Source: Styela clava | Lineage: Eukaryota | Length of the DNA: 64,000 bases | Direction: 5' to 3' | NCBI RefSeq assembly: GCF_964204865.1 | Contig: NC_135259.1 | Span: 7,688,001 to 7,752,000 of the forward strand | Shown here: positions 42,107 through 43,030 of the stretch, piece by piece | How the letters are laid out: the number at the start of each line of letters is the position of its first letter | Position numbering within the stretch: the first letter of the stretch is position 1 | Position numbers and translations under genes: made by a program | The notes under the pieces: model-generated | Seen by the model: the letters and a program-made list of their open reading frames with translations, nothing else | Databases searched by the model: none | What the model was told of the DNA's origin: nothing

Positions 42107-43030
42107 ATGAAGACGATTTGCATTGTATTATTTGTATCTTTTCTTCTCTTCATTTCATTTGAGTAAGTGGATTATTGTATTTTTGCATCTAATGTGATAT
42201 AGAAATATACGTAGTAGTAACAAACAAAAAAAGTTGTTATGAAAAATTATTAAAGAATTGTTGTTTTCATTCTTTATCCAAAACAAATTTATATTTTTCT
42301 GGTGAGAGTAAATGTTCATCCATTTTAATATGAAGATTATCTTTATAGTGTGATTGTAACTTTGAAGTATCCATTGTAAGAGTTTAATATTAAACCAAAT
42401 TAAACAACAAAACACCATTTATTATATATACGATTTGGAAGACCAATTTTCTGAATTTATTTGTTATCAGCACATTTTACGAATCAGAAATATACAAATA
42501 AAATTGAGTAAATTAACGGACAGGTGTTCGATACACGTAACAATTTCCATATCCATATTGGAGTTTTTATAAATGTTAATTATGTGTTTTTGAAAGGTTG
42601 TGTGCTGGAGGGACATGTAATGGGACTTTTTGTAGAGGGTATTGCTGCTTAATTCAACAGCACCAAGATTATGTTGCGAGATGCCTGACTGTAAGTATTT
42701 AAATTCAAAGATAATTTTTTCAAAGCCAAGCACTCGCTCAAGTACTCATCTATGATTAAATATGTACACTCTATAATGTTTTTTATTGCGAGTTTTGTGT
42801 ATTGAATTTCAGAAACATTCAAATTTTTTAAAAATATATCTCGGTTTTCGGTTTTAATTTATTTCATAAATGCAGTATTATTGTATCTAAAATTTGTCAA
42901 TACCATTTATTGTAGACCTAATTTCATTTGTCTAGCTTCGAAAAATAGGGCGTTTTTTTTTAATTTGGGATTCTGTCGTAATTCACACAAAAACTAAGAA
43001 TAATATTTTCTGCTGTCCCAGGTTTGTTAA
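42107..43030 (+). CDS. Putative small secreted cysteine-rich peptide (52 aa precursor), 3 exons
   Basis: Exons 42107-42162, 42597-42690 (both with GTAAGT donors) and 43022-43030 (strong acceptor ttttctgctgtcccag, AATAAA at ~43052) give MKTICIVLFVSFLLFISFELCAG-GTCNGTFCRGYCCLIQQHQDYVARCLTVC*. The last exon is uncertain. Confidence 0.6.

What the first reader, a model, noticed from the sequence alone, without database searches (positions are those of the whole stretch)
42107..43030. Hidden secreted cysteine-rich micropeptide gene (C-C-CC-C-C framework)
Seen: a signal-peptide exon and a Cys-rich exon, both with GTAAGT donors, join in frame. The nearest strong acceptor (43022) adds VC* followed by AATAAA, giving mature GTCNGTFCRGYCCLIQQHQDYVARCLTVC. 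Known: C-C-CC-C-C is the knottin/conotoxin VI-VII cysteine order, though the loop spacing here (4-3-0-11-3) is atypical. Alternatives seen: splicing to ~43778 gives ...CLT-SEISICCSGRMY*; adding one A near 42651 would give CC-LNSTAPRLCCEMPD, a Shisa/CYYR1-like pattern, so it may be a frameshifted allele or an assembly error. Inference: an unannotated antimicrobial, toxin-like or signalling peptide. It lies just upstream of a DEG/ENaC channel, a family that includes peptide-gated and toxin-modulated members; any link is speculative.
Basis: partly seen in the sequence, partly recalled or inferred. Interest (0 to 1): 0.7.

Follow-up and report, generated by a model that had tools for sequence, protein, structure and literature searches.

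The report
Orphan cysteine-rich sea-squirt peptide gene
The sea squirt Styela clava carries a spliced gene, missing from the protein databases searched, for a small cysteine-rich peptide that is predicted to be secreted and likely serves host defence; it does not fit the knottin toxin pattern, and only position links it to the neighbouring ion channel.

Summary
The gene is real, but the proposed peptide and label are probably wrong. The window is Styela clava. A contig of run X6 joins exon 1 (to 42162) to exon 2 (42597-42690) at GT-AG ends with no gap; DNA contigs match the assembly base for base, so the frameshift or assembly-error idea is not supported. Depth bookkeeping on X6 points to 43778 as the next exon, plus an intron-2 read-through form; 43022 is not seen but not excluded. 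The main product would be 62 aa: signal-like start, mature part of 39-43 aa, 7-8 cysteines (C-4-C-3-CC-11-C-7-CC), net charge +1. No splice form fits the knottin consensus. No homologue was found in the genome, protein databases, Pfam or PDB; likeness to granulin and colipase does not exceed cysteine-fixed shuffles. Best reading: a lineage-specific secreted disulfide hairpin peptide, likely for defence by target binding (about 45%). The DEG/ENaC link rests on adjacency only.

The parts
42079..42162 (+). Exon 1: at least 28 nt of 5' UTR, ATG at 42107, 18 codons of a signal-like hydrophobic stretch, phase-2 donor
   Evidence: X6 contig record 17 covers 42079-42162; translation and donor; hydropathy 3.23 over the best 10 residues
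42163..42596 (+). Intron 1, 434 nt, GT-AG
   Evidence: skipped by X6 record 17; no X6 depth left over in bin 42145-42418
42597..42690 (+). Exon 2: 31 codons with six Cys (precursor positions 21, 26, 31, 35, 36, 48) and one N-glycosylation sequon; phase-0 donor
   Evidence: single copy by DNA and protein search of the genome
42691..42896 (+). Start of intron 2, seen unspliced; read-through would stop at 42700-42702 (53-aa form)
   Evidence: X6 record 18, 42661-42896, depth 3.2; may be pre-mRNA; model B
43022..43057 (+).
   Evidence: strong acceptor in the sequence; no listed X6 piece and no spare depth for a third branch
43173..43727 (.). High-copy repeats inside intron 2 (one element apparently interrupted by another at 43361-43613)
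   Evidence: depth thousands of times background and a 43360/43614 joint in X1 and X10; limits approximate
43778..44014 (+). Exon 3 (best supported): 12 codons with a CC pair, TGA at 43814-43816, 3' UTR, AATAAA at 44009
   Evidence: X6 record 20 laid on 43780-43920 with 32 unlaid leading letters, depth 4.5; join to exon 2 inferred from depth bookkeeping; 3' end inferred from the signal
43632..44169 (+). Segment with one other copy in the genome (71-74% identical, G000:C13:7016126-7016611), which lacks most of the exon-3 coding stretch
48333..56224 (+). Neighbouring DEG/ENaC (ASC family) gene, part tested; not shown to be linked
   Evidence: Pfam PF00858 on four exon frames; first coding exon read

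Best explanation
This is a spliced, single-copy gene of Styela clava whose 62-residue product is predicted to enter the secretory route, lose its signal peptide and fold into a small disulfide-held stack of beta-hairpins that likely acts outside the cell in host defence by binding a microbial or host target rather than by charge-driven membrane lysis. Shown: exon 1 to exon 2 splice, intact reading frame, cysteine-rich exon far above background, no detectable relatives. Inferred: exon 3 at 43778, secretion, cleavage site, fold. Least supported: the defence role. If the signal is cut after residue 22-24, as the small-residue rule suggests (established knowledge; SignalP was not available), the mature peptide has 7 Cys and the spare one would likely form a covalent dimer, as in the Halocynthia peptides dicynthaurin and halocidin; if it is cut at the exon 1/2 border, 8 Cys would close four disulfides.
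For: Splice and frame: (X6 record 17; X1 record 2). Exon 3: (32 = 30 + 2 unlaid letters; depths 3.2 + 4.5 against 7.6; residual 134 against 135). Not chance: 3 of 450 exon-like frames. Fold: single-sequence AlphaFold2 model of window 42598-42699 gives four short strands, pLDDT 71.6, pTM 0.34; its only matches among 48,161 chains at Z 2 or more are three small disulfide hairpin peptides (Z 2.1-2.3). Net charge +1 in all 4 splice models. Precedent in ascidians for short, uncharged, cysteine-rich antibacterial peptides without database relatives: St-CRP-1 and -2 (PMC13208793; abstract, first part of the text and passages); for single-disulfide dimers: PMC10608444 (passages).
Against: No activity, tissue or induction data. 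No orthologue, so no test of selection. RNA support is one run whose RNA status is a guess, at low depth (7.6), and the exon 2-3 join is inferred, not listed as a joint. The fold model covers exon 2 only, three of five models scored 68-72 and two 48-52, and Z 2 matches are below what the tool calls meaningful. Defence peptide genes usually come in families (established knowledge); this one is single. The odd cysteine count under the likelier cleavage is awkward. Exon 3's coding stretch is absent from the one duplicate of that segment.
Confidence: 0.45

Rival explanations
1. Same gene and secreted peptide, but it is a signalling ligand or enzyme cofactor, a shortened and much diverged relative of the granulin or colipase/prokineticin hairpin folds; the TGA at 43814 would stand where a further cysteine once stood.
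For: Two of the three weak fold matches are granulin N-terminal hairpin stacks (Z 2.2 and 2.1); the weak Foldseek row 2n8k is a disulfide-rich spider peptide (E 9.3). The frame beyond the TGA stays open for 15 codons and holds two more Cys. Near-neutral charge suits protein binding.
Against: Alignment scores against 21 granulin first halves, 16 second halves and two colipase-like exons of the same genome are reached by 446, 146, 178, 547 and 664 of 1000 cysteine-fixed shuffles. Genome searches with PF00396, PF01114 and PF06607 do not list this locus, while single exons of a true colipase-like gene do hit Pfam (E 0.0017 and 0.0003). Intron positions differ from both genes. No SECIS on the plus strand at E up to 10.
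Confidence: 0.2
2. The gene is a frameshifted descendant of a Shisa-like (C*C*CC*CC) or GPI-anchored surface protein: the second half of exon 2 and exon 3 were once read in another frame that holds a second CC pair and ends in a hydrophobic tail, and the present frame is a relic fixed in the species.
For: The other frame of exon 2 is open from 42636 to the donor and holds a CC pair; the matching frame of exon 3 reads 21 mostly hydrophobic residues to a stop. C*C*CC*CC after a signal is the Shisa-like pattern (PMC5578492, passages). A CC pair in an open 13-codon frame occurs in 0.74% of 75,716 background frames.
Against: No indel in X1 (depth 56.9) or in the X6 contig, and none listed for X5, which by depth probably covers the place. 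The present frame also gains a CC pair in exon 3, so one of the two pairs is chance either way; one search shows a similar cysteine motif arising in an off-frame of an unrelated gene (L025). No PY motif or cytoplasmic tail follows. PF10873 does not list the locus. X6 shows a one-base insertion at 43838 (one contig, depth 4.5, may be an error) that is harmless in the present frame but would shift the other.
Confidence: 0.15
3. A young or decaying gene: weakly transcribed, 3' end unsettled (intron read-through, an exon taken from duplicated non-coding DNA), product without a selected function.
For: Low X6 depth, about 40% of it unspliced at intron 2 (3.2 of 7.7); no homologue in any search; exon 3 lies in a duplicated segment beside a repeat whose other copy belongs to no identified gene.
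Against: Signal-like exon, strong splice sites, in-frame join and a cysteine density found in 3 of 450 exon-like frames are hard to get together without selection. Whole-animal or wrong-tissue libraries give low depth for cell-specific peptides (established knowledge).
Confidence: 0.15
4. One reading: a six-cysteine knottin-like peptide, ending at the 43022 exon, that modulates the neighbouring DEG/ENaC channel.
For: The 43022 acceptor is strong, is followed by AATAAA, and gives an even six Cys after the likelier cleavage; a short terminal exon can be lost from contigs; the top fold row is an alphaD-conotoxin chain (Z 2.3, tied with the granulins).
Against: ICK spacing fails for that model too (loops of 11 and 3 against 1-4 and 4-13); no RNA-type piece at 43022; adjacency is the only link to the channel.
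Confidence: 0.05

Closest known systems
St-CRP-1 and -2 and turgencins (Synoicum turgens; PMC13208793)
   Same: Ascidian, short, cysteine-rich, CC pairs, no database relatives; St-CRPs are uncharged and moderately antibacterial
   Different: St-CRPs are 18-19 aa with CC-C-C-CC and an amidated end; turgencins are 35-36 aa, lysine-rich, six single Cys. This peptide would be 39-43 aa with C-C-CC-C-CC (7-8 Cys)
Granulin module (PF00396; S. clava progranulin at G000:C19:12.35-12.40 Mb)
   Same: Predicted hairpin stack (Z 2.1-2.2); CC pairs; module split by a phase-0 intron before a CC pair
   Different: 7-8 Cys instead of 12, two CC pairs instead of four, single module, intron two to three codons off, no sequence signal beyond Cys
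Colipase / prokineticin / MIT1 fold (PF01114, PF06607; S. clava colipase-like gene at L150)
   Same: C-C-CC-C order at the start of a secreted protein
   Different: Ends before the CxC half; no Pfam match although the true colipase exons give one; other intron positions
Inhibitor cystine knot peptides (knottins, conotoxin framework VI/VII)
   Same: C-C-CC-C order of the first five cysteines; small secreted beta-structure predicted
   Different: Loop 4 is 11 residues (consensus 1-4); no sextet fits in any splice model; no propeptide between signal and mature part
Styelins, clavanins, halocidin, dicynthaurin (PMC10608444)
   Same: Small secreted peptides of related stolidobranch ascidians; halocidin and dicynthaurin dimerise through one cysteine
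   Different: Those are helical and cationic or His-rich, with few or no Cys; this one has no acidic extension and net charge +1
Shisa-like / CYYR1 (STMC6) proteins
   Same: The C*C*CC*CC pattern and a hydrophobic tail appear only if two reading frames are combined
   Different: The sequenced and transcribed frame does not give that pattern; no PY motifs

Membership tests
Inhibitor cystine knot (knottin) | Spacing CX3-7CX3-8CX0-7CX1-4CX4-13C (as printed in PMC4942781) | tested here: not met
   0 compatible sextets in 4 of 4 splice models (consensus)
Inhibitor cystine knot (knottin) | C1-C4, C2-C5, C3-C6 disulfides forming a knot | not testable with these tools
   the model output gives no disulfide map; needs mass spectrometry or NMR
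Inhibitor cystine knot (knottin) | Fold match to solved knottins | tested here: inconclusive
   exon-2 model only; best Z 2.3, no Foldseek row under E 8
Granulin | Twelve cysteines with four CC pairs | tested here: not met
   7-8 Cys, two CC pairs; S. clava modules shown
Granulin | Sequence likeness beyond the cysteines | tested here: not met
   446, 146 and 178 of 1000 cysteine-fixed shuffles reach the score; locus not among 49 PF00396 matches
Granulin | Beta-hairpin stack fold | tested here: inconclusive
   Z 2.2 (rmsd 2.2, 30 aligned) to 1fwo and Z 2.1 (rmsd 2.6, 28 aligned) to 1qgm
Colipase / prokineticin / MIT1 | Ten cysteines, C1-C4, C2-C5, C3-C7, C6-C9, C8-C10 (PMC6832493) | tested here: not met
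   the frame stops after 7-8 mature Cys (pattern)
Colipase / prokineticin / MIT1 | Profile match to PF01114, PF02740 or PF06607 | tested here: not met
   no match for exons 2 or 3 (only DUF7622 at E 1.2); positive control exons of L150 match; locus absent
Shisa-like / CYYR1 (STMC6) | C*C*CC*CC after a signal, in one reading frame | tested here: not met
   needs a frameshift that X1 and X6 do not show; pattern from PMC5578492
Shisa-like / CYYR1 (STMC6) | Single membrane span followed by a tail with PY motifs | tested here: not met
   the other frame of exon 3 is hydrophobic but stops after 21 residues without a PY motif
Styelin / clavanin-type precursor | Cationic helical mature peptide with an acidic pro-piece | tested here: not met
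   net charge +1, no acidic stretch, predicted strands
St-CRP class | 18-19 aa, CC-C-C-CC | tested here: not met
   39-43 aa, C-C-CC-C-CC (definition)
St-CRP class | Antibacterial activity of the folded peptide | not testable with these tools
   needs an assay
Selenoprotein (TGA read as Sec) | SECIS element in the 3' UTR | tested here: inconclusive
   no SECIS on the plus strand of 43000-44700 at E up to 10; one SECIS_4 row on the minus strand at E 4.6; the true 3' end is not known
Secreted peptide (general) | Cleaved N-terminal signal peptide | tested here: inconclusive
   basic start and 15-residue hydrophobic core; SignalP not available, cleavage site open between residues 19 and 24

The most novel reading that the evidence does not exclude
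A new ascidian disulfide scaffold (C-C-CC-C-CC) whose last exon was captured from duplicated non-coding DNA beside a repeat, and whose cysteine number is switched by alternative 3' ends (intron read-through, 43022 or 43778), so that one small gene makes several differently cross-linked defence peptides. A role on the neighbouring DEG/ENaC channel is not excluded but is far less likely (about 3%).
Probability: 0.15. Interest if true: 0.6.

Novelty: new variant of a known kind. Interest (0 to 1): 0.36.

Why it matters
The known Styela clava defence peptides are linear helices; disulfide-rich ascidian peptides named in the papers read come from Synoicum turgens. It does not yet answer a standing question: one gene, no orthologue, no activity.

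Tried and rejected
No RNA holder was listed on record; X6 is an RNA guess, treated as RNA because it holds a GT-AG spliced contig and has no depth in most intronic bins. X10 (raw Hi-C) had no depth over the exons, so the raw-read check of 42649-42653 could not be made; X1 may be the sample behind the assembly. Homologue searches, all with exon 2 or its 40-aa open frame only: word search 22-70 aa and 71-2000 aa, phmmer over 1.84 billion representatives, 0 at E up to 0.001, PDB sequences, 13 rows, best E 0.72, Pfam, genome, 985 kb around the locus and a 70-kb peptide cluster (output cut in the middle; 3' segment repeated). The Atlas gave no result for this sequence. Motif scan of the genome: 111 matches against 46 for the control pattern; 100 listed, 30 fetched and read, none a paralogue; the other 81 were not read in context. 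Motif scan of metagenomes: 47 of 47 loci read, none related. Idea that the gene shares a superfamily with the peptide gene at G000:C13:7014096 through signal exon and 3' end: dropped, because the exon-1 likeness is not above background (97 of 132 control pieces score as high), the pattern was built from the two sequences, and the shared 3' segment lies beyond that gene's end and is missing from its sister gene. Granulin, colipase, prokineticin, CYYR1 and selenocysteine ideas: tested as listed. Fold libraries listed no knottin family at a useful score; this does not exclude one. The bacterial promoter scan does not apply to an animal. No complex prediction with the channel was sent: adjacency is no reason for one. 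Literature: nine searches (listings with abstract starts) named no such gene, but text search cannot find a sequence, no supplements were read, and S. clava gene tables in supplements could hold it. PMC10980280 was seen as outline and abstract only and not used; PMC3295595 is not held.

Full report
Setting. The window is G000:C13:7688001-7752000 of a 377-Mb animal genome. A transporter exon in the window is 99% identical to a protein named for Styela clava on a contig of the same length as C13, so the organism is this sea squirt. The finding lies between a minus-strand gene with sushi repeats and a plus-strand DEG/ENaC gene, whose first coding exon starts near 48333.

The observation. Exon 2 is unusual: of 450 open exon-like frames in 985 kb of this chromosome, 3 hold six or more cysteines at 15% or more, and two of these are copies of another gene. 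Signal-like first exons are commoner, 14 starts at 11 places.

Splicing. In one search, a 178-nt contig of run X6 lies on 42079-42162 and 42597-42690 with 3 substitutions and no gap (depth 7.6). X6 is listed only as a probable RNA run, but a contig that skips a GT-AG intron is what RNA gives. Two more X6 contigs continue from exon 2. One (depth 3.2) starts 30 nt before the exon end and runs unspliced to 42896. The other (depth 4.5) is laid on 43780-43920 from its 33rd letter. Thirty letters of overlap with exon 2 plus two letters of exon 3 make the 32 unlaid letters; the two depths add up to the first; and the depth left over in bin 42419-42692 after the listed pieces is 134 letter-depth units against 135 expected for 30 letters at 4.5, while four neighbouring bins close to within 1 unit. 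The join 42690/43778 is therefore inferred, not listed. No listed piece lies at 43022, and a third branch of depth 2 would add 60 units. Against over-reading this: 15106 pieces were not shown, depths are low, and a terminal exon of about 50 nt is the kind of short tip that contig assemblers remove (established knowledge). I put 43778 as the main exon at about 70%.

Reading frame. The X1 contig 41061-43388 (depth 56.9) has no difference and no gap, the X6 contig has no gap in exon 2, and no indel in exon 2 is listed for X5, which by depth probably reaches about 42671. An assembly error is not supported; X1 may be the assembly's own sample, X6 and X5 are other studies. The raw-read run X10 had no depth here.

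Product. Spliced by coordinates: 62 aa with exon 3 at 43778 (Cys at 5, 21, 26, 31, 35, 36, 48, 56, 57), 53 aa by intron read-through, 52 aa with 43022, 64 aa with a further acceptor at 43801. Net charge of the mature part is +1 in all. The cleavage site decides the parity: cut after residue 23, the counts are 7, 5, 6 and 6; cut at the exon border, 8, 6, 7 and 7. The two forms seen in X6 are both even only with the early cut, while the small-residue rule favours the later one; this is unresolved.

Relatives. Each exon is single-copy in the genome, and BLAST over 985 kb around the locus and a 70-kb peptide cluster found no paralogue of exon 2. Protein searches with exon 2 or its 40-aa open frame found nothing; these are short queries and the word search needs three shared 5-residue words, so distant relatives could be missed. 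The only homologous DNA is a copy of 43632-44169 at G000:C13:7016126-7016611, 71-74% identical, which lacks most of the exon-3 coding stretch. I read the copy as a duplicated non-coding segment; which locus is the donor is unknown.

Fold and families. AlphaFold2 on window 42598-42699 alone gives four short strands, pLDDT 71.6, pTM 0.34. Of 48,161 chains three reach Z 2: an alphaD-conotoxin chain (2.3) and two granulin N-terminal fragments (2.2, 2.1); Foldseek gives 2 rows at E 8.6 and 9.3. These are hints of a disulfide hairpin stack, not assignments. The knottin consensus printed in PMC4942781 (passages) is met by no cysteine sextet in any model. Granulin and colipase were tested against the genome's own genes: scores are reached by 146 to 664 of 1000 cysteine-fixed shuffles, and single exons of the colipase-like gene hit Pfam where this gene's exons do not. 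The Shisa-like pattern (PMC5578492, passages) needs a frameshift that the reads do not show; a CC pair in an open 13-codon frame arises in 0.74% of background frames, and since the present frame also gains a CC pair in exon 3, one of the two is chance whichever reading is right. My first leads to colipase, granulin and CYYR1 were spacings recalled from memory; only the tests cited here count.

How it most likely works. Translation on the ER, removal of the signal peptide, disulfide folding (possibly with glycosylation at the one sequon), and release as a compact 39-43-residue peptide, perhaps a covalent dimer if one cysteine is spare. With a charge of +1 and no amphipathic helix it is unlike styelins and clavanins (PMC10608444, passages) and more like the uncharged St-CRPs of Synoicum turgens, which inhibit Gram-positive bacteria moderately and also lack database relatives (PMC13208793, abstract, first of six text parts and passages). 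I commit to host defence by target binding at about 45%; signalling or cofactor role 20%; frameshifted surface-protein relic 15%; young or functionless 15%; knottin acting on the neighbouring channel 5%. That the locus is a transcribed, spliced gene I put at about 90%.

Verdict. A real hidden gene with a cysteine framework that fits none of the families tested, in an animal already known for many lineage-specific defence peptides. New variant of a known kind; interest 0.36, limited by the lack of orthologues, expression pattern and activity.

Noticed in passing
L150:1337-2333 (G000:C3:13744674-13745670): An apparently intact three-exon colipase-like gene in this sea squirt: signal exon, an exon matching Pfam Colipase (E 0.0017) and an exon matching MIT-like and Colipase_C (E 0.0003, 0.008); each under the family cut-off because introns split it.
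   Followed up: partly
   Followed up: partly
G000:C19:12354883-12401204 (L180-L185): A progranulin gene with more than 20 granulin modules, most split by a phase-0 intron in mid-module.
   Followed up: partly
window 20300-32510, minus strand: Multi-exon gene with a WAP-like cysteine exon near 32500, many sushi repeats and what reads like a trypsin-type protease start near 22300 (sushi confirmed, the rest read by eye).
   Followed up: no
window 600-15300 and G000:C13:7680700-7681600: Tandem monocarboxylate-transporter-like genes.
   Followed up: no
G000:C13:7.51-7.58 Mb and 7.58-7.65 Mb: A near-identical tandem duplication of about 70-74 kb, seen as paired hits; it holds a signal-plus-cysteine exon at 7572885 and 7644546. 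Could be a true duplication or an uncollapsed haplotype.
   Followed up: no
L025:1501-1533 (G000:C3:15210014): A C-x4-C-x2-Y-CC motif that lies in an off-frame of another, intronless open frame (HIG1-like by recall): a natural example of such motifs arising by chance.
   Followed up: partly
window 40501-48700, run X10: Run X10 carries the same species label as X1 but has almost no depth on unique sequence and mostly 90-95% alike reads on repeats; it may be a diverged population or another species.
   Followed up: no
window 42597-42690, run X6: Three substitutions in 94 nt of exon 2 are listed for the X6 contig; which bases, and whether they change residues, was not shown.
   Followed up: no
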